From positions 22,436-86,435 of IMG/VR virus record IMGVR_UViG_3300044994_000386: DNA of 64,000 nt. One strand, 5' to 3'. A program made the position numbers and the translations under genes. The stretch is from a virus. Shown here in pieces: positions 5,596-56,408 of the stretch (position 1 is its first letter; the number at the start of each line of letters is the position of its first letter). A model generated the notes under the pieces. It was not told where the DNA came from. It was given only the letters and a program-made list of their open reading frames with translations, and searched no databases.

Positions 5596-7740
5596 ATGAT
5601 AAATAAAAAACCACCTGTAATTAAAAAAATTGTTTTTACCACAGATTTAGTTGAAAAAACAACCAAAAGAATTCATGATGGTGAAAAAGTGCAAAAATTT
5701 GAAAATCCGTGGTTTGTAGGTGAAATTGGTGTAAGGAGAGCCGGTATCGCATTTAAGCTAAGTGAAAATGAGATTCAAGAGTATATTCGTTGTAAATTAG
5801 ATATTCATTACTTTGCTGAAAAATATTGTAAAGTAAAAACAGAAGATGGATCAATTCAAAATATTAAGTTAAGAGATTATCAAAAAGATATTTTAGATCT
5901 TTATACTAAGAACAGATTTTCAATTTTAATGGGTTCGCGACAGATTGGTAAAACAATTAATGCGGCAATTACAATGTTACACTTTATTACTTTTAATAAT
6001 GATAAAAACATTATGATTGTAGCAAATATCCGAGGGACTACAATTGAAATTGTGGATAAAATAAAATCGATTTATGTTAATTTACCATTTTTTTTGAAAG
6101 TAGGTATTAAAAATTGGAACCAACAATCCATTATCTGCGAAAATGGTTGTCGTATTAAGACTGCTGCTCGAAGTAAATCACCTGCGATTGGTTTTACAAT
6201 TGATTTTCTTTACCTAGATGAGTTTGCACATATTCCATCAAATATTATCGAACCTTATTACACTGCGGCTTTCCCAGTAGTTTCGGCGATTGAAAACTCT
6301 AAAATTATTATTACTTCAACCCCAAAAGGTATGAATCTTTTCTATCGATTACTTATGGATGCTGAAAGACCAGAAGGTGATCCCCAAAAGAATAACTATC
6401 GAGCAATGAGAGTTTACTGGTATCAAGTGCCGGGTCGATTTGTAACTTATTATAGATTAAATAATCATCGAATGTATGAACATGGGGTTACAAAAGAACA
6501 AATATTTGAACAAGTTAAAGAGCACTTTAGTGATTTTACAAAGGTAGAAATGAAATTCAACTCAGAACTTGTTAAATATGTAATTTATGTTTATAATAAT
6601 GATACCTGTTCGGAAGAAATGGCTAAGAAATTTGAATTTATAAATTCAAAAGGCGAATCATTGCCGATACAAAATATCGCAGAAGTAACAACTTGGAAAC
6701 AAGAAGCGATTAAAGATATCGGTGGTGAAGAAGCATTTAACCAAGAATATGGTCTTAGATTTATAAATACCACTCGTTCATTATTGAATGAAAGTATTAT
6801 TGAGTCATTAATTGAGAATAAAAAACATTATGAATATGAAAAGATTTATGAATTCGATAAAAAATTAAAATTTAGTTATTCTGACTTGAAATGGATAAAA
6901 GATGATGAAGTATTCACACCAGTGATGAGAAATTCGATCAGGGGAGTGATGTCAGTAGATATTTCTGAAGGTTTAGGTCAGGACTATTCGGTAATTAATA
7001 TATTCAAAATTGCACCAAAACCAAAAGAAGTAATCGATGTTTTTAAACATACATATACTTCACTTTCAGATTTCTTTTGTCTGCAACAGATTGGTATGTA
7101 CCGATCTAATTTTGTTTCAGTAAAACAATTGGCAGAAATTTTTTACCTACTAGTGTTTGAATATTTTAATTATGAAAATTGGAAAGTAGTACTTGAGGTT
7201 AATAACTATGGTAATGAGTTTTTAGCACATTTGCCACACGTTTTTGATGGCAATAATAATTATGGTTCTTCAATATTTTTTAGGTATAAGCATAGATTAG
7301 ATGCGGTTGAAGAAAAAATAGGACTCAAAGTCGGTGATAATAAAAATATGTTAGTAAAAGAATACCAAGAAGCTATGGAGAAGCGTAATTTTATAATTAC
7401 ACAAGAAGATAACATTCGAGAAATAACTACATTCGTAAAACACATAACTCCGTCTGGAAATGTGAGATATGCCGCAGATATTGGGAATGATGATACGGTA
7501 ATGACTTTGGTAAACTTATCATCAGTATTCAGCAAACACGCATTCAAAGAAATGGTAGAAGATTATGCTCCACAGATTGTAGATGCCACAACTTTAAATG
7601 AATGGAATCAATTCTTGAAAAATATTGAATATATAGAAGGTACTGATTATTCTTCGCTTATAAATGTAAATCGCAAACGTAAATTAATAAATCAATATAG
7701 GAAAAATTTCAGACCAGGAAATAATTGGTTAGGAATTTAA
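5596..7740 (+). CDS. terL: Terminase large subunit (T4 gp17-like); likely start 5596
   Basis: LRDYQ, SRQIGKT Walker A, LYLDEFAH Walker B, ITSTPKG, FNQEY, SVDISEGLGQDYS and DDTVM nuclease motifs. Confidence 0.95.
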   Translation: MINKKPPVIKKIVFTTDLVEKTTKRIHDGEKVQKFENPWFVGEIGVRRAGIAFKLSENEIQEYIRCKLDIHYFAEKYCKVKTEDGSIQNIKLRDYQKDILDLYTKNRFSILMGSRQIGKTINAAITMLHFITFNNDKNIMIVANIRGTTIEIVDKIKSIYVNLPFFLKVGIKNWNQQSIICENGCRIKTAARSKSPAIGFTIDFLYLDEFAHIPSNIIEPYYTAAFPVVSAIENSKIIITSTPKGMNLFYRLLMDAERPEGDPQKNNYRAMRVYWYQVPGRFVTYYRLNNHRMYEHGVTKEQIFEQVKEHFSDFTKVEMKFNSELVKYVIYVYNNDTCSEEMAKKFEFINSKGESLPIQNIAEVTTWKQEAIKDIGGEEAFNQEYGLRFINTTRSLLNESIIESLIENKKHYEYEKIYEFDKKLKFSYSDLKWIKDDEVFTPVMRNSIRGVMSVDISEGLGQDYSVINIFKIAPKPKEVIDVFKHTYTSLSDFFCLQQIGMYRSNFVSVKQLAEIFYLLVFEYFNYENWKVVLEVNNYGNEFLAHLPHVFDGNNNYGSSIFFRYKHRLDAVEEKIGLKVGDNKNMLVKEYQEAMEKRNFIITQEDNIREITTFVKHITPSGNVRYAADIGNDDTVMTLVNLSSVFSKHAFKEMVEDYAPQIVDATTLNEWNQFLKNIEYIEGTDYSSLINVNRKRKLINQYRKNFRPGNNWLGI

Positions 7741-31528: not shown

Positions 31529-31559
31529 AAAAAACCCACTAAAATTAGTGGGTTTTTTT
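31529..31559. terminator. Bidirectional terminator
   Basis: AAAAAACCCACTAA-aa-TTAGTGGGTTTTTT. Confidence 0.75.
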
Positions 31560-33006
31560 ATAACTCAATTGAGTTGATTCGGTTGTATAAGGCTCGTTTG
31601 TCTTCCTCCATCATTTTCATGATGTCAAAGACTCTATCAGAGAAACCAGCTAAAGCAAATACTTTAGGCTCTGGGAATTGAAGAGTTCCATATCCTTGTA
31701 AGTCCCAAGAGTAAACATAAGGATTACAGTTGAACTTCTTCTTGTAGTCGGCAAACTGAGCAGTGGGTGTATTGTAGCCAATCCAGCCCTGCATATCTGA
31801 TAAGATAATTACTCTATCATAAGATTTATTAGCCTTAATGAATATATCTTTGAAGTTAGTTCCACCACCTGAAAAATTGAACTTACTACGGATAGTAAAA
31901 ATAGAATCCATTGGATTATATTCAATGTAGCTAGCATAATTCGCAAAAGTCATAACATCACAGCTATTAGCTTTAGCAATCATAGCACCAAATAGAGATG
32001 CAATTTCAGAAGGACGACCACTCATAGAACCAGATACGTCAATGACAACCAAAGTTTCGCCATTAAATCTTGGAACATTTACTACCGAAAAATCTAAAGC
32101 TTTATTGATGGCAACCAATACTTTACGAACTTCAGATGAAGAGCCAAGTTTTGAGACTTCTTCATAAGCAGTCGAAAAACGGAAAGGTAGAACTTTAGAT
32201 TTTCGAATCATTGATTCGTCAATTAAAAGAGTACAAGCTGCATCTACCACTGATGGTGCCTGAGAAATAATATTTCTCAAGTTTTTCAAAAGAGCAAAGT
32301 AACCAATCTTACGAGTTTGAATTAACTCAGACCATGCATCGGCTTTAAGTTGACTTAATTCTTCTTCGTTAGAAGCATTTTGACCAGCCTGAGAAAGCAT
32401 AGCCTCCCAAGTATCAGTGTTTTTTAATTTACCGCTGATCAAGGCTTTCAAAGCTTCGGAATTTTTCTCGGTAGGAACCGGATGAACCAAGTTTACCACG
32501 TCAACTAATTTGAATTTTTTAGATTCACCTTTGTACTTAGCCAATTGATAAGTATCAAACTTATCGAAAGCTTTAGCAAATCCTTTTTTTAAAGAATTTG
32601 GAAATTTAGGTTTATTCTTATCGGTTTTGTAGTTAACATAGTAAGACATAATTTCAGTCATATCATCAACACGACTAACAACCTTATTATAAAAATTTTT
32701 AGACCATTCTTGACCAGAGATATATAATGCTAATTCAGCGGCAAGTACATGAGTAATACTTCTCATTCCGAATTCATCACGAGCAAAAATAGCAGCTTTA
32801 GCCGCAAATTTAGGATCAACTTTAGATAAGAGAGCCTTTAAATCGTCAATTGATTGGTCAGCCGATCGGTAAAACTGGTTGTTAACAAATGATGTCAACA
32901 ACAAAGAAACAAGAGACAGTTCATCAGTTTTGCGATAGGCTTCACCACCAGCAAGATTAATTGTTTTTGTTTTTGGTTTTGATTCTGTTTTGTTAAACTT
33001 TGACAT
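31558..33006 (-). CDS. Ro60/Rsr-like TROVE-domain RNA-binding protein with vWA domain; likely start 33006 (MSKFNK)
   Basis: NLAGGEAY, AR.EFGMRS, RVDDMTE, FDTYQLAKY, LVHP, TWE, ALLKNLRN, LPFRF, DVSGSM (MIDAS), GGT, ILSDMQ. Confidence 0.92.
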   Translation of the reverse strand: MSKFNKTESKPKTKTINLAGGEAYRKTDELSLVSLLLTSFVNNQFYRSADQSIDDLKALLSKVDPKFAAKAAIFARDEFGMRSITHVLAAELALYISGQEWSKNFYNKVVSRVDDMTEIMSYYVNYKTDKNKPKFPNSLKKGFAKAFDKFDTYQLAKYKGESKKFKLVDVVNLVHPVPTEKNSEALKALISGKLKNTDTWEAMLSQAGQNASNEEELSQLKADAWSELIQTRKIGYFALLKNLRNIISQAPSVVDAACTLLIDESMIRKSKVLPFRFSTAYEEVSKLGSSSEVRKVLVAINKALDFSVVNVPRFNGETLVVIDVSGSMSGRPSEIASLFGAMIAKANSCDVMTFANYASYIEYNPMDSIFTIRSKFNFSGGGTNFKDIFIKANKSYDRVIILSDMQGWIGYNTPTAQFADYKKKFNCNPYVYSWDLQGYGTLQFPEPKVFALAGFSDRVFDIMKMMEEDKRALYNRINSIEL

Positions 33007-33100
33007 ACTATATAAATTTATTTTGTTTTCTATAGACAAGGACTCGTAGAAATCATTATTGGCTTTTGAATCATGCGAGTGTATAAAACTCAATCTATAC

Positions 33101-33143
33101 AAAAAAAAAATCAGAGTTACTTAAACTAAATAACTCTGATTAC
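33101..33143 (-). terminator. Intrinsic terminator upstream of the Ro60 CDS (attenuator-like)
   Basis: AATCAGAGTTA / 11-nt loop / TAACTCTGATT followed by T8 on the - strand. Confidence 0.8.
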
Positions 33144-33159
33144 AAATATATATATAAAA

Positions 33160-33456
33160 TTAGACAAATAGGAAAAGCTAGTTGAGCTTTTTTTTATATT
33201 TAACTTTATCTAAATAAAAGTTAAAAAATAGTTGATTGATTTTTAGGTCTATCATCAAAACCCCAATCTTTGGTTCATTTTGGTCAGAACTGCTATTCGT
33301 AGCAAACGTCTATTTTTTTTTAATCTTCCTCTCCAAAGTATTAAGTTTTTTTTTGGATATAGAAGCATCTAAAACCATAGATAGTTTTTAGAACTTTCAT
33401 GATAGTTTTGAATTTTTCTTATCGAAGTAACTCATCCTATCACCATATTTGTCTAA
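33160..33456 (-). ncRNA. Candidate long Y-like RNA (~297 nt)
   Basis: Ends pair (TTAGACAAATA / TATTTGTCTAA); motif TGGTGA-TAGGATGAGT-TACTTCG pairs with GCTCAACTA; several internal hairpins; adjacent to Ro60. Confidence 0.65.
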
Positions 33457-33468
33457 TAATTTTAACAT

Positions 33469-33540
33469 GTAATCAGAGTAAGTTTTAGAAAAGTATTTTT
33501 CTATGCACGCGAAGTAACTTTTCTAATCACTACTGATTTT
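33469..33540 (-). ncRNA. Candidate minimal Y-like RNA / Ro60-binding element (~70 nt)
   Basis: AATCAG/CTGATT closing stem, TTAGAAAAGT/ACTTTTCTAA inner stem, same TAGTGA-N10-TACTTCG motif; begins right after a promoter. Confidence 0.65.
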
Positions 33541-33544
33541 ATTG

Positions 33545-33570
33545 TTATACATAAGGTTTTTAAAAAGTTT
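33545..33570 (-). promoter_or_regulatory. AAAC-N17-TATAA promoter for the Y-like RNA/Ro60 unit
   Basis: AAAC TTTTTAAAAACCTTATG TATAA; motif recurs at seven other loci. Confidence 0.6.
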
Positions 33571-33676
33571 ACAAAAATAATAATTTTTTTTAATAATTTG
33601 TACATATATATATGAACATATAAAATTTAATTTTTTTTAAAGTGGATTTTTTATAGTCCATTTTCTATATACTTTA

Positions 33677-36235
33677 TTAAGATCCACATGCTAAACATTC
33701 TCCAGGTTCCGAATCTAAGCTACAAGCAATTTCCGACATTTGATCTTCTACTGACTTAGGCTTTTCTTCTTTTTGTACAGTAAACTTAACAGCATCAGCA
33801 GCACTCTTAGTTCTGAAATAATACATACCGGTTTTTAGATTGGTTCTTTTGTCGCGATAAAATTTTGGATTACCGGATTTATCATAAACTACTTCAATGG
33901 TCGGATCTTTAGGAATGACAACTTGGCCTTTTTCATCAGTGATTAGATTTCTACGTCCCCAACCATAAAAATGCATTGATGTTAGCTTTCCGAAGTTAGC
34001 ATTATCCATAAATATATTCATTGATTGTGTTTGGTCAATAAAAGCACCTCTATCAGCCGCCATATCAATAACATCTTTTTGTTTAATTTCCCAAACTGTC
34101 TTGAATATTTCTTTAAGATTAACTGGAATTTCAGGTACATTTTGAACAGAACCGTTAGAAGCAATGATTTTATTCCTAACCGAATCTGACCAGATTCCAA
34201 GTTTAACTAATTCTTTCACAAGATATTTGTTTACATTTATAAACTCACCTGAAAGTACACGTCTTACATAAAGGTTTGAAGTTTGTGCTTCACAGGATGC
34301 TTCATTTCCTAAAATAGAAGCGGTTGATGCAGTTGGCATAATACATGTTGTTAAAGAGTTTCTAACGCCAAATTTTTTAATATCTTCTCTTAATTTTTTC
34401 CAATCCCATCTATCTGTTGGTGTGACACCCCATAAATCAAATTGGAATTTACCTTTAGAAATAGGGGATCCCTCATATGAAGCATAAGGACCCTTTTCTT
34501 TAGCTAAGTCACAAGAAGCCCTCATCGCTGAATAATAGATAGTTTCAAATATCTCTTTATTCAACTTTTTAGCTTCATCAGAATCATAAGGTAAATTTAA
34601 TAAGAAGAAAACATCGGCTAATCCTTGAACACCTAAACCAATTGGTCTGTGTAAGAAGTTTGAGAATTTAGCAGAAGGCGATGGATAATAATTAACATCG
34701 ATTACATTATTCAAGTTAATTGTTGCCGAGTAAGCCACTTCATATAATTTCTTGAAGTTATAAGTTTTGTTTTTATTAACAAATTTAGACAAAGAAATTG
34801 ATGCTAAGTTACATACAGCAGTTTCATTTACATATTCTTTACCATAAAATTCACCTAAGCCTAAAGATTCAAGTAAAGATTTATTCTGAAGAACTTTACT
34901 TTGAAATTTAGTAACACCAGTTGCTTCTACAATTTCAGCACAAAGATTTGAACTACGTATAATACCAATATTTGATTGATTTGATTTTTCATTGATAGCA
35001 TCTTTATATAAGATATATGGTGTACCGGTCTCAACTTGTGATTCAAGAATTTTGTTCCATAATTCACGAGCTTTAATAGTCTTTTTGCCACGACCTTCAG
35101 ACTCATATTTTAAGTAAAGTTTTCTAAACTCTTGACCATAAGTCTCGGTCAAACCTGTACATTCGTGTGGACACATCAAAGTCCAATCTTCGTCTAAGTC
35201 AACTCTTTCCATGAAAAGATCATTCATCCAAATAGCTAAGAAAAGGTCACGAGCACGTAATTCCTCTTTACCTTGATTTTTTCTTAAATCTAAAAATTCG
35301 AAGATGTCGGAGTGCCAAGGTTCAATATAAATAGCAATTGATCCTTTACGTTTTCCACCACCTTGGTCTACCGCACGAGCCGTCTCGTTGTAGATTTTCA
35401 AAAATGGAATAATACCATTGGAAGTCCCATTTGTACCAGCAATGTAAGATCCTTTGGCTCTAACTTTAGAGAATGAAATACCAATACCACCAGCATTTTT
35501 TGAAATCTGTGCTGACTCTTTTAAGGTGTTAAAGATTCCTTCAATTGAATCTTGTTCAACATCTAATAAGAAACAAGATGATAATTGTGGCCTGATAGTG
35601 CCTGAGTTGAATAAAGTAGGTGTCGCGTGAGTATAATATCCTTCCGATAGTAAATTATAAGTTTCAATTACCTTAGGAATATTTTCGCCCCATATCTGAA
35701 TTGCGGTTCTCATGTACATATATTGAGGTCTCTCTGCGACTTTACCATTGATTTTCAATAAGTAAGATTTTTCCAAAACTTTATATCCAAAATACTCAAA
35801 GTTATGATCTCTCGAGTGGACTATTGCTGAATCTAACTCATCAGCATGTTTTTGTACTATTTTGTAAAAACTTTCTGAAATTATGGGTGAGTGTTTACCA
35901 GTTTTCGGATTCACATAATTATATAAATCTCCCATTGTTTCGGAGAAACTTTTTTTAGTTTCTTTGTGTAGACTAGTTATTGCTAATCTAGATGCTAAAA
36001 TTGCATAATCTGGATGTTTTGTTGTTAGTGATGCCGCAGTCTCCATTGCAAGTTTGTCTAGAACCCTTGTTTCAACATCAGGAGTAATTCCTTCGATTAC
36101 TTTTTGTGCAACTTCAAAAGGAACGATCCATTTTGTGTCCAAACCATATGTCTGTTGATTAATGCGTTCTAAGATTTTATCTAACATCAAGGGTTCTTTT
36201 TTACCATTTCGTTTTGTTACTTTTATCATACTCAT
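33677..36235 (-). CDS. nrdA: Ribonucleotide reductase class Ia alpha subunit with ATP cone
   Basis: VTKRNG, ATPTLFN, LSSCFL, SNLCAEI, VCNLAS, MPTAS, TGMYY, C-terminal CLAC. Confidence 0.97.
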   Translation of the reverse strand: MSMIKVTKRNGKKEPLMLDKILERINQQTYGLDTKWIVPFEVAQKVIEGITPDVETRVLDKLAMETAASLTTKHPDYAILASRLAITSLHKETKKSFSETMGDLYNYVNPKTGKHSPIISESFYKIVQKHADELDSAIVHSRDHNFEYFGYKVLEKSYLLKINGKVAERPQYMYMRTAIQIWGENIPKVIETYNLLSEGYYTHATPTLFNSGTIRPQLSSCFLLDVEQDSIEGIFNTLKESAQISKNAGGIGISFSKVRAKGSYIAGTNGTSNGIIPFLKIYNETARAVDQGGGKRKGSIAIYIEPWHSDIFEFLDLRKNQGKEELRARDLFLAIWMNDLFMERVDLDEDWTLMCPHECTGLTETYGQEFRKLYLKYESEGRGKKTIKARELWNKILESQVETGTPYILYKDAINEKSNQSNIGIIRSSNLCAEIVEATGVTKFQSKVLQNKSLLESLGLGEFYGKEYVNETAVCNLASISLSKFVNKNKTYNFKKLYEVAYSATINLNNVIDVNYYPSPSAKFSNFLHRPIGLGVQGLADVFFLLNLPYDSDEAKKLNKEIFETIYYSAMRASCDLAKEKGPYASYEGSPISKGKFQFDLWGVTPTDRWDWKKLREDIKKFGVRNSLTTCIMPTASTASILGNEASCEAQTSNLYVRRVLSGEFINVNKYLVKELVKLGIWSDSVRNKIIASNGSVQNVPEIPVNLKEIFKTVWEIKQKDVIDMAADRGAFIDQTQSMNIFMDNANFGKLTSMHFYGWGRRNLITDEKGQVVIPKDPTIEVVYDKSGNPKFYRDKRTNLKTGMYYFRTKSAADAVKFTVQKEEKPKSVEDQMSEIACSLDSEPGECLACGS

Positions 36236-56062: not shown

Positions 56063-56408
56063 TGGAGGTGGGGGTATCGAAACCCCGTCTTCTTCAGCTA
56101 AAATTAATTACTCATTTACAGGCTTAGTAAATTTTTCTAAATTTACAAAATATTCAGTTTTATATTACGTGTTATCCTGACTTTCAACGAGACTTTTACA
56201 GAGTCTTTACTGTTTGGAAACCTATTAAGCAAAAGCTACTTCGTTTACCTTTAAGATGTTGTTGCGTAGGGCAAATACTAAATCTTCTTTGCTTGCTACT
56301 TCGTTTGTGTTGCCATTTAAAGCGTTTGATACCGTTTTTGAATCGGTTAGATATCATCCGATGCCTGCATAATTAACTTTACTCTGCGAATCTATACCTT
56401 TCACCCCC
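56063..56408 (-). ncRNA. ssrA: tmRNA; tag reading frame 56314-56225
   Basis: GGGGGTG/CACCTCC-A acceptor stem with G3:U70; T arm GGGGT-TTCGAT-ACCCC; GCAGG near the 5' end and CCTGTA near the 3' end; tag ends AFA-TAA-TAG. Confidence 0.9.

What the first reader, a model, noticed from the sequence alone, without database searches (positions are those of the whole stretch)
33101..33570. Candidate Ro60-sensing transcription attenuator built from Y-like RNA elements
Seen on the - strand, in order: promoter (33570-33545), short element A (33540-33469), long element B (33456-33160), terminator (33143-33101), Ro60 CDS (33006). The 3' strand of A (ACUCUGAUUAC, 33479-33469) can close A's own stem with 5' AAUCAG. 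It is also an exact 11-nt complement of the terminator's 5' arm (GUAAUCAGAGU, 33143-33133). B is closed by an 11-bp helix nested just inside these two segments, so folding B brings them together. Established: Ro60/Rsr binds the terminal stem of Y RNAs. Inference: bound Ro60 stabilises A's weak stem, the terminator forms and only the RNAs are made. Without Ro60, A sequesters the terminator arm and transcription reads into ro60. This would be a feedback switch balancing Ro60 against its RNA. I know of no description of it, but did not search.
Basis: partly seen in the sequence, partly recalled or inferred. Interest (0 to 1): 0.92.

Follow-up and report, generated by a model that had tools for sequence, protein, structure and literature searches.

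The report
Y-RNA/terminator switch before phage Ro60
In a huge lake-water phage, two Y-like RNAs are transcribed just upstream of their partner protein gene Ro60; the stop signal between them can instead pair with the first RNA, and relatives keep this pairing with different sequences, so it probably controls how much Ro60 is made.

Summary
Observation confirmed. On the minus strand lie a conserved promoter-like motif, a short Y-like hairpin A, a ~300-nt Y-like RNA B, a strong intrinsic terminator and the Ro60/TROVE gene. A's 3' strand (a', 33479-33469) is an exact 11-nt complement (12 with 33468/33144) of the terminator's 5' arm (t, 33143-33133).

I collected 51 related phage leaders. The a':t pairing is kept in 50. 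Its sequence differs between lineages (window, L062, L014 clade, L080) and is unrelated in distant relatives (L006, L085/L086). In a blind energy scan, a' is the best upstream partner of t in 49 of 51. A transcript cut before the terminator's 3' arm folds with a':t in 47 of 48. Full transcripts fold with the terminator in 48 of 48. Most leaders leave only 23-55 nt between terminator and ATG.

This is a conserved terminator/antiterminator architecture. That Ro60 is the sensor, and the direction of control, remain inference: no binding or transcript data exist, and calculated barriers between the states are low.

I found no published description. This scan noted similar switches before on other phage DNA.

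The parts
33545..33570 (-). Promoter-like motif AAACTTTTT-N12-TATAA, about 5-30 nt upstream of A
   Evidence: Its only intergenic occurrence in the window. The motif TTTAAACTTTTT-N11-13-(G)ATATAAAA lies at the same place in most related leaders. Promoter function is inferred and no transcription start was mapped.
33469..33540 (-). Y-like RNA module A. It has a basal stem a:a' (33538-33533 with 33476-33471), a bulge, a middle helix AGUGA:UUACU, a 9-10 bp upper stem, and an apical loop with UUACUUCG and an A-rich tract
   Evidence: -19.5 kcal/mol, z -5.2. RNAalifold on 48 leaders gives the same hairpin, with 6-22 sequences changed on both sides in eight of the nine upper-stem pairs. The 5'-strand motif AGYGAU..G.UACUUCG also opens YrlA-like RNAs with T arms in other phages.
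33469..33479 (-). a': 3' strand of A (ACUCUGAUUAC). It pairs either with a (CUGAUU only) or with the terminator 5' arm (all 11 nt)
33160..33456 (-). Y-like RNA module B (~300 nt). It has the same 5'-strand motif (UGGUGAUAGGAUGAGUUACUUCG), a long closing stem and a multi-hairpin interior with no tRNA-like arms
   Evidence: The closing stem is 33456-33446 with 33170-33160. The stem covaries strongly in 48 leaders, columns 111-133 with 507-530. There is no Rfam match, including YrlA RF02553.
33133..33143 (-). t: 5' arm of the terminator (GUAAUCAGAGU). It pairs either with a' or with the 3' arm t'
33101..33143 (-). Intrinsic terminator: a 15-bp stem (33141-33109), a 3-nt loop and a run of 10 T (33110-33101)
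   Evidence: z -6.6. A hairpin plus T-run lies at the same place in all 51 related leaders.
33143..33150 (-). TATATTTG, a match to the Bacteroidota -7 promoter box (consensus from my own knowledge), abutting t. It may be an internal promoter that would bypass the terminator in this window only
   Evidence: Read from the sequence. It is absent from the corresponding position of the 47 other leaders. Function not tested.
31558..33006 (-). Ro60 / TROVE protein gene (482 aa)
   Evidence: Pfam TROVE E 1e-19 and a weak Ro60 vWA match. There are 4049 homologues at E <= 1e-60, several named 60 kDa SS-A/Ro ribonucleoprotein by JGI.
31529..31558 (-). Intrinsic terminator that ends the ro60 transcription unit
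   Evidence: 13-bp stem plus T-run.

Best explanation
The locus is one transcription unit: promoter, Y-like RNA A, Y-like RNA B, intrinsic terminator, ro60, terminator. The terminator's 5' arm (t) has two partners. One is its own 3' arm (t'), which stops transcription so that only the two Y-like RNAs are made. The other is the 3' strand of A (a'), 326 nt upstream and brought close when B folds. That pairing removes the base of the terminator stem next to the U-tract, so that RNA polymerase reads into ro60. a' in turn is shared with A's own weak basal stem (a:a'). This is the classical anti-antiterminator / antiterminator / terminator layout of a transcription attenuator, here built from a Y RNA and placed before the gene of the Y RNA's partner protein. 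It sets or regulates the ratio of Y RNAs to ro60 mRNA. Shown here: the helices, their mutual exclusivity, their conservation and covariation, and the lack of space for another promoter in most relatives. Inferred: that the terminator works in the host, that a':t lowers termination, and what flips the switch. Ro60 itself is the most economical candidate effector, because A and B are its presumed ligands. I give that part roughly 0.3, and the direction of control is open.
For: (1) The window shows exact 11-12 nt a':t complementarity. Duplex energies are a':t -17.1, a:a' -6.2 and t:t' -15.2 kcal/mol. (2) Forty-eight distinct leaders share the layout A-B-terminator-ro60 (Ro60 62-75% identical to the window's; the window itself is included). 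In these, a':t is Watson-Crick at offsets -1 to +5 in 42-46 of 46 distinct segment sets. a:a' is only 4 bp (CCAG:CUGG), and a' positions +4 and +5 pair with t but not with a. The core is 97.3% paired, against 15-44% when the partner is slid by 1-3 columns. (3) Lineage-specific versions exist: window GUAAUCAGAGU/ACUCUGAUUAC; L062 UAAACCAGA/UCUGGUUUA; L072 and L038 UCGACCAGA/UCUGGUCGA; the L014 clade ACCAGA plus a 2x2 loop plus UUUCAAAA:UUUUGAAA; L080 4+7 bp. (4) Some pairs are specific to a':t and not mirrored by t'. The base 5' of GACC in t is A (pairing with a U of t') except in six independent lineages on the tree; in five of these it complements a'. My binomial estimate is p about 0.02. (5) Distant relatives use unrelated sequence. 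In L006 (57% identity) UACCCUUUCAAG pairs 11/12 with CUUGCAAGGGUA. In L085/L086 (49%) AUAUCCCU-ACURAAAA pairs with UUUUUAGU-A-AGGGAUAU. In each case this joins the 3' strand of the penultimate Y module to the flank and 5' arm of the terminator, with the last module nested between. (6) In a blind scan, a' is the energetically best partner of the t region anywhere in the 560 nt upstream in 49 of 51 leaders. (7) The minimum-energy fold of a transcript ending before t' has at least 6 a':t pairs and an open A basal stem in 47 of 48 leaders. Full transcripts have the terminator in 48 of 48. The same holds for L006, L085 and L086. (8) The distance from terminator to ATG is 23-55 nt in 41 of 48 leaders, all A/T-rich. 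(9) The one leader that lost a':t (L078) has a weak 6-bp terminator and a stronger A basal stem.
Against: There are no transcript data: no RNA run was listed. No binding data exist. In nearest-neighbour calculations the terminator state is favoured by a median of 9.5 kcal/mol, and the barrier from a':t to the terminator is a median of only 4.6 kcal/mol. On its own, a':t might therefore delay the terminator hairpin only briefly. The core a':t helix is just 7 bp in most leaders, and its core sequence is nearly invariant within the main clade, so much of the covariation comes from a handful of lineages. Because a' resembles t', part of the signal is confounded with terminator-stem conservation. 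In L085/L086 a basal stem of the penultimate module (the anti-antiterminator) is not predicted to form. The window has a 102-nt spacer and a TATATTTG box, which could give terminator-independent ro60 transcription here.
Confidence: 0.55

Rival explanations
1. Ro60-sensing negative feedback exactly. Ro60 bound to A stabilises a:a', the terminator forms and only Y RNAs are made. Without Ro60, a' captures t and ro60 is transcribed. This is a special case of the best explanation.
For: A and B carry the Y-RNA 5'-strand motif and lie beside ro60. A's basal stem is conspicuously weak, and a' carries conserved bases that pair only with t. The barrier from A-closed to a':t is low, 2.4-6.8 kcal/mol in ten leaders, so free RNA would default to a':t before t' is made. 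Autogenous attenuation by a protein binding a leader that resembles its RNA ligand is established for L20 on the B. subtilis infC leader (PMC1865079).
Against: There is no binding evidence. [quoted passage not shown] In A the likely motif lies about 20 nt from a:a'. X. laevis Ro60 is described as separating the Y RNA helix (PMC12135203), which could act in the opposite direction. Binding to B's stem, which stacks on a':t, would predict positive control instead.
Confidence: 0.28
2. A ligand-free leaky terminator. The a':t alternative merely lets a fixed fraction of polymerases read through, which hard-wires an excess of Y RNAs over ro60 mRNA with no sensing.
For: It rests on the same structural evidence as the best explanation. 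Both interconversion barriers are low, which suits a kinetic partition. No effector needs to be postulated.
Against: A weaker terminator stem or a shorter U-tract would achieve leakiness more simply. The elaborate three-way overlap with A's own stem is conserved over Ro60 identities from 49 to 100%.
Confidence: 0.2
3. A maturation helix. a':t together with B's closing stem is a processing or 3'-end-defining stem for B or for an A+B RNA. It could be a double-strand RNase site, or a stop for 3' exonucleases once t' is displaced. The overlap with the terminator would then serve RNA maturation rather than control of ro60.
For: a':t stacks directly on B's covarying closing stem. In L085/L086 the inner part of the long-range helix persists even in the terminator state. 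In the L014 clade the linkers add another 8 bp. Y RNAs upstream of rsr are processed from a single precursor in M. smegmatis (PMC4201824).
Against: A pure processing stem has no need to overlap both A's basal stem and the base of the terminator stem, yet that overlap is the conserved feature. The helix is short (7-12 bp with loops) for RNase III. Tandem Y-like modules not followed by a terminator and ro60 (L016) show no such flanking helix (a single example).
Confidence: 0.17
4. ro60 has its own promoter and the complementarity is irrelevant to its expression. In the window the promoter would be the TATATTTG box at 33150-33143 or something in the 102-nt spacer.
For: TATATTTG matches the Bacteroidota -7 consensus TAnnTTTG (my knowledge). 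The closest GenBank relative is a 634,780-bp uncultured phage. A published set of 634-735 kb phage genomes, which may include it, is predicted to infect Bacteroidetes (PMC7162821). A start just downstream of the box would truncate the terminator's 5' arm.
Against: The box is absent from the other 47 leaders. Most of them leave only 23-55 nt between the U-tract and the ATG. This reading does not explain the conserved, covarying a':t pairing.
Confidence: 0.08

Closest known systems
Bacterial and phage Y RNAs encoded next to rsr/ro60 (D. radiodurans Yrn1/Yrn2; Salmonella and Mycobacterium YrlA/YrlB; Thermus phage phiLo Yrl1/Yrl2)
   Same: One or more small structured RNAs lie directly upstream of the Ro60 gene on the same strand. 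Each has a long stem formed by its 5' and 3' ends, a large loop and a conserved 5'-strand motif containing UCGA. Tandem copies occur, and in M. smegmatis they are processed from one precursor (PMC4201824; PMC12135203).
   Different: A and B lack the tRNA-like D and T arms and do not match Rfam YrlA RF02553. B is about 300 nt, well above the 80-130 nt given for Y RNAs. I found no description of a terminator/antiterminator interplay with ro60 for any Y RNA.
Autogenous transcription attenuation of the B. subtilis infC-rpmI-rplT operon by ribosomal protein L20 (Choonee et al. 2007, PMC1865079)
   Same: A roughly 200-nt structured leader has a terminator and an alternative structure. The product of the regulated operon binds a leader domain that resembles its natural RNA ligand and provokes premature termination. 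This is the logic proposed here for Ro60.
   Different: Here the leader is not a mimic. It consists of the presumed natural ligands themselves (Y-like RNAs), which are also the products of termination. The antiterminator spans a 300-nt nested RNA. No protein dependence has been shown.
Classical terminator/antiterminator/anti-antiterminator leaders (trp leader, PyrR, T-box; named from my own knowledge)
   Same: Four segments pair 1:2, 2:3 and 3:4, so that segment 1 resembles 3 and segment 2 resembles 4. This is the pattern seen for a, a', t and t'.
   Different: There is no leader peptide: a 9-codon ORF in the window's leader is not conserved. No known ligand-binding fold is present. Segments 2 and 3 are separated by a whole structured RNA.
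Long-range processing stems that flank mature RNAs in precursors (for example the RNase III stems of rRNA operons; from my own knowledge)
   Same: Sequences on either side of a structured RNA (B) pair over several hundred nucleotides.
   Different: The helix is short and overlaps two other functional helices. No cleavage data exist.

Membership tests
Ro60 / TROVE protein | TROVE domain followed by a vWA domain | tested here: met
   Pfam TROVE E 1e-19 (71 bits, cut-off 23). The vWA_Ro60 match is weak, 20.4 bits against a cut-off of 27.7. Close homologues carry PF05731, PF25045 and PF05762.
Y RNA (general) | Encoded next to the Ro60 gene | tested here: met
   A and B lie 463 and 154 nt upstream of the ro60 ATG on the same strand. 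The same holds in 50 related leaders.
Y RNA (general) | Long stem formed by the 5' and 3' ends, with a large internal or apical loop | tested here: met
   A. B's closing stem covaries.
Y RNA (general) | 5'-strand Ro-contact motif (GGUCCGA in animals, GNCGAAN0-1G in bacteria; PMC4201824) | tested here: inconclusive
   Both modules carry a nearly invariant G.UACUUCG(A/U). It shares only UCGA with the published motif. The same motif opens YrlA-like RNAs in other phages.
Y RNA (general) | Bound by Ro60 | not testable with these tools
   Needs a gel shift or co-immunoprecipitation.
YrlA (Rfam RF02553) | tRNA-like domain with D and T arms; a match to the covariance model | tested here: not met
   No match at E <= 10 in the leader or in the whole 86-kb record. 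ARAGORN finds nothing.
Intrinsic (Rho-independent) terminator | Stable hairpin immediately followed by a U-tract | tested here: met
   15-bp stem, 10 T, -15.8 kcal/mol, z -6.6.
Intrinsic (Rho-independent) terminator | Produces RNA 3' ends in vivo or in vitro | not testable with these tools
   No RNA run was listed.
Transcription attenuator (terminator/antiterminator switch) | Terminator lies in the leader of the regulated gene with no intervening promoter | tested here: inconclusive
   The spacer is 23-55 nt in 41 of 48 leaders, which argues against a promoter. The window has 102 nt and a TATATTTG box. No starts were mapped.
Transcription attenuator (terminator/antiterminator switch) | Alternative helix that sequesters the terminator's 5' arm and is mutually exclusive with it | tested here: met
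Transcription attenuator (terminator/antiterminator switch) | The alternative helix is conserved and covaries | tested here: met
Transcription attenuator (terminator/antiterminator switch) | Anti-antiterminator competing for the same strand | tested here: met
   a:a' forms in the window and the main clade. It is not predicted in L085/L086.
Transcription attenuator (terminator/antiterminator switch) | Read-through depends on an effector | not testable with these tools
   Needs in vitro transcription or reporter assays.

The most novel reading that the evidence does not exclude
A Y RNA acts in cis as the sensor of an autoregulatory attenuator. The occupancy of the Y-like RNAs by Ro60 would decide co-transcriptionally whether polymerase stops after the RNAs or reads on into ro60. 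A family of huge phages would thereby balance Ro60 against its RNA partners. This would be a cis-regulatory function for a Y RNA, which I did not find described, and a protein-dependent attenuator whose leader is the protein's natural ligand rather than a mimic.
Probability: 0.28. Interest if true: 0.8.

Novelty: new variant of a known kind. Interest (0 to 1): 0.66.

Why it matters
What bacterial and phage Ro60-Y RNA particles do, and how their two components are kept in balance, is poorly understood. This locus offers a concrete, mutationally testable link. The terminator that ends the Y RNAs is wired by a conserved, covarying long-range helix to one of those RNAs, directly in front of ro60. 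If the switch responds to Ro60, it extends autogenous control of the ribosomal-protein type to an RNA quality-control particle, and it gives Y RNAs a cis-regulatory role. Even if the switch is ligand-free, it shows how a phage fixes the ratio of non-coding RNA to mRNA within one operon. It also defines a widespread family of Y-like RNAs without tRNA mimicry in huge phages with genomes of roughly 0.4-0.6 Mb.

Tried and rejected
The metagenome scan returned nothing above 75% identity.
- RNA evidence: no RNA holder was listed by the look-up of sequencing runs.
- Rfam gave no family at gathering or at E <= 10 for A or B, none for YrlA RF02553 in the whole record, and only tRNAs in related loci.
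- My first look by eye at L006 and L085 found no complementarity, because I compared the last module. Re-examination showed that the penultimate module pairs with the terminator.
- The longest-exact-match scan was blurred by A/T-rich ties of 7 nt, so I replaced it with a duplex-energy scan.
- MAFFT put the window's t segment two columns out of register in A2. The per-position tables therefore use my anchor-based gapless registers.
- The promoter-like motifs (AAACTTTTT..TATAA and TATAAAAAATCCAC) are not repeated elsewhere in the window. They are locus-specific, not a general phage promoter.
- Leader-peptide attenuation is rejected: a 9-codon ORF (MYNNKISSD) overlaps a in the window but is absent from relatives.
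- An outer helix a:t' (8 bp in the window) is not conserved, at 4 bp or fewer in the main clade, so a whole-RNA closure model is dropped.
- Ro60 loci of unrelated phages (Vibrio, Ralstonia, Arthrobacter, crAss-like) have other layouts, so the switch cannot be generalised beyond this family.
- A/T-rich linker pairing between a' and B, and between B and t, is at the chance level in most leaders (offsets +8 to +14).

Full report
CONTEXT. The window is part of an 86-kb IMG/VR virus record that CheckV estimates to be 15% complete. It has about 28% G+C. It encodes a T4-type large terminase, a family B DNA polymerase, ribonucleotide reductase and a DnaB-like helicase. The best GenBank match of its Ro60 protein is a 634,780-bp uncultured phage, LR745206.1, at 71% identity. 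Al-Shayeb et al. 2020 describe 634-735 kb genomes of the Mahaphage clade with predicted Bacteroidetes hosts (PMC7162821). That LR745206.1 is one of them rests only on the matching length. The related contigs come mostly from lake metagenomes.

OBSERVATION.
- A (33540-33469) folds into a single hairpin of -19.5 kcal/mol, z -5.2.
- The terminator (33143-33101) has a 15-bp stem and ten T, -15.8 kcal/mol, z -6.6.
- The 3' strand of A, ACUCUGAUUAC (a', 33479-33469), is the exact complement of the terminator's 5' arm GUAAUCAGAGU (t, 33143-33133). The match extends to 12 nt.
- B (33456-33160) is closed by an 11-13 bp helix nested immediately inside a' and t.
- Duplex energies are a:a' -6.2, a':t -17.1 and t:t' -15.2 kcal/mol.
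- The ro60 CDS (33006-31558) is a TROVE protein and ends with its own terminator.

WHAT A AND B ARE. I aligned 48 distinct homologous leaders, alignment A2. RNAalifold recovers A as a basal 4-6 bp stem, a bulge, a short middle helix and a 9-bp upper stem. Eight of the nine upper-stem pairs are kept through changes on both sides in 6-22 sequences. It also recovers B's long closing stem, with many compensatory changes. Both modules begin, just after the basal helix, with the same motif (A/G)G(Y)GAU..(G)AG.UACUUCG. That motif also opens RNAs with clear tRNA-like T and D arms (YrlA-like) in other phage loci: L016, L042/L047/L048 and module 1 of L006. A and B are therefore Y-like RNAs by position, architecture and motif. 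They lack the tRNA-like domain and do not match Rfam YrlA (RF02553) or any other Rfam family. Tandem Y RNAs upstream of rsr are known in D. radiodurans and M. smegmatis (PMC4201824) and in Thermus phage phiLo (PMC12135203).

IS THE a':t COMPLEMENTARITY CONSERVED? I gathered leaders from three sources. These were motif scans of IMG/VR, protein-guided scans of IMG/VR and JGI metagenomes, and GenBank. Forty-eight distinct leaders, the window included, have the layout promoter motif, A, B, terminator, ro60. The Ro60 proteins of the other 47 are 62-75% identical to the window's.

In anchor-based registers, a':t is Watson-Crick at seven consecutive positions (UCUGGUC:GACCAGA) in 42-46 of 46 distinct segment sets. 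a:a' is only four pairs (CCAG:CUGG). The next two a' bases (UC) face mismatches in a but pair with t. On alignment A2 the seven-pair core is 97.3% paired, against 15-44% when the partner is slid by 1-3 columns.

Several lineages carry different solutions:
- window: 11-12 bp, GUAAUCAGAGU
- L062/L061: 9 bp, UAAACCAGA
- L072/L038: 9 bp, UCGACCAGA
- L014/L039/L013: 6 bp, a 2x2 loop, then 8 bp UUUCAAAA:UUUUGAAA, including a C:G pair that the U-tract of t' cannot mimic
- L080: 4+7 bp

Because a' resembles t', conservation of the terminator stem could mimic conservation of a':t. The pairs specific to a':t speak against that. The base 5' of GACC in t is A (pairing with a U of t') except in six independent lineages on a tree built without these columns. 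In five of the six it is the complement of the facing a' base. My binomial estimate against a one-third chance is p about 0.02.

The strongest evidence comes from distant relatives with unrelated sequence. In L006 (57% identity), UACCCUUUCAAG pairs 11/12 with CUUGCAAGGGUA. The first is the 3' strand of the penultimate Y module; the second is the flank and 5' arm of the terminator. In L085/L086 (49% identity), AUAUCCCU-ACURAAAA pairs with UUUUUAGU-A-AGGGAUAU. In each case the last Y module is nested between the two strands. In L086 this holds despite an extra insert of about 190 nt.

A blind scan folded the t region against every 22-nt window of the 560 nt upstream. It ranks a' first in 49 of 51 leaders. 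The exceptions are L078, which has lost the pairing, and L006, where a' is second by 0.7 kcal/mol. L078 also has the weakest terminator (6 bp) and a stronger A basal stem.

FOLDING. For the window, the transcript that ends after t but before t' has a':t in its minimum-energy fold. The full transcript prefers A closed plus the terminator, at -105.1 kcal/mol, against -100.3 with a':t forced. Across the family:
- The truncated transcript has at least 6 a':t pairs and an open A basal stem in 47 of 48 leaders.
- The full transcript has the terminator in 48 of 48 and a':t in none.
- The three distant leaders behave the same way.
- Direct-path barriers from A-closed to a':t are 2.4-6.8 kcal/mol in ten leaders.
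- Barriers from a':t to the terminator have a median of 4.6 kcal/mol, and the terminator is favoured by a median of 9.5 kcal/mol.

These are crude equilibrium-model numbers. They say that free RNA would readily form a':t once t emerges. They also say that t' could readily displace a'. A factor that holds one state is therefore plausible, but which state it holds cannot be deduced.

MECHANISM. Shown: three mutually exclusive helices whose shared strands are conserved and covary; a canonical terminator; and a very short A/T-rich spacer to the ro60 ATG in most relatives (23-55 nt in 41 of 48), so that ro60 most likely depends on read-through.

Inferred: a':t removes the basal seven or more pairs of the terminator stem next to the U-tract and so lowers termination. 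a:a' opposes this.

The effector is unknown. Ro60 is the obvious candidate, because the leader consists of its presumed ligands. Ro60 contacts mainly a 5'-strand motif and may not need the helix (PMC4201824), and X. laevis Ro60 is described as prying the Y helix apart (PMC12135203). Binding to B, whose stem stacks on a':t, could act in either direction.

RIVALS.
(i) A ligand-free leaky terminator that fixes the ratio of Y RNA to mRNA.
(ii) A maturation helix for B or for an A+B RNA. The inner part of the long-range helix persists in the terminator state in L085/L086. However, a pure processing stem need not overlap both A's stem and the terminator. Tandem Y-like modules without a downstream terminator and ro60 (L016) show no such helix.
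(iii) A separate ro60 promoter. In the window, TATATTTG (33150-33143) matches the Bacteroidota -7 box (consensus from my own knowledge), and the spacer is 102 nt. Neither feature is conserved.

COMPARISON AND NOVELTY. The parts are known kinds: Ro60, Y-like RNAs upstream of it, and an intrinsic terminator. The wiring has the layout of classical attenuators. In its proposed logic it comes closest to L20 control of the B. subtilis infC leader (PMC1865079). Full-text searches found no description of a terminator/antiterminator switch involving Y RNAs or ro60. Earlier notes of this same scan describe similar switches before ro60 in other phage genomes. I treat those notes as leads, not evidence. 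One of them supplied the RF02553 accession that I tested. I class the finding as a new variant of a known kind.

LIMITS. Everything here is computational. No RNA-seq run was available. Within the main clade the a':t core hardly varies. Other phage families with Ro60 have different layouts.

Noticed in passing
window 56063-56408, and the whole window: An earlier first-stage note (item 8) proposes a phage tmRNA at 56063-56408. ARAGORN found no tRNA or tmRNA anywhere in the window, and Rfam gave no match at gathering scores. That note is therefore not supported by these two tools.
   Followed up: partly
window 33007-33102 (minus strand): The reading frame of ro60 stays open for 32 codons upstream of the homologue-supported ATG, back to a TTG right after the terminator's T-run (ORF 31558-33102). 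Only this window's lineage has the long 102-nt spacer. This is probably chance in A/T-rich sequence.
   Followed up: no
L017 about 7555-7660, between terminator and ro60: One relative carries a G+C-rich insert of about 90 nt between the terminator and the ro60 start (GAACAAACTCGGACAAGCTCGTG...CCACGAGCCTCTGTCCC). Its ends are complementary, suggesting a small structured element of unknown kind.
   Followed up: no
L086, between Y modules 2 and 3: A structured insert of about 190 nt sits inside the long-range helix of L086 and is absent from its close relative L085. Its identity is unknown.
   Followed up: no
L042, L047, L048 (crAss-like phages; Ro60 about 33% identical where the full protein aligns, in L047 and L048): Y-like modules here seem circularly permuted. 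The 3'-strand sequence (AAAAACACTCTCAGATACTTTCTCTG) precedes the 5'-strand motif (CAGTAGC.ATTCAGAGAGTTACTTCG). The two are joined by a short loop and enclosed by an outer GGGGGAAT/ATTCCCCC stem. In L048 the module lies downstream of ro60, next to YrlA-like RNAs.
   Followed up: no
L064, L066, L081, L084, L092, L095, L096: A sister clade of phages (Ro60 62-69% identical) has no Y modules directly upstream of ro60. Instead it has a conserved small ORF (MPKLIRKERNIYYEHYEVE...), preceded in most members by a tRNA array (in L066 by another coding region).
   Followed up: no
window 33642-33686 and the same place in relatives: A conserved element TATAAAAAATCCAC..N25-30..(G/C)ATATATA(C/T) follows the upstream gene (ribonucleotide reductase in the window). 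In many relatives it forms a hairpin (ATCCACCT...AGGTGGAT). In a few (L003, L036, L054) it lies directly before A with no AAACTTTTT motif. It could be the upstream gene's terminator or a second promoter.
   Followed up: partly
L101 (phage csAssE-Sib) 1440-1475: A crAss-like phage has two tRNA genes, then a strong hairpin with a T-run about 30 nt before its Ro60 gene. This is another case where ro60 seems to depend on read-through of a terminator that ends RNA genes.
   Followed up: no
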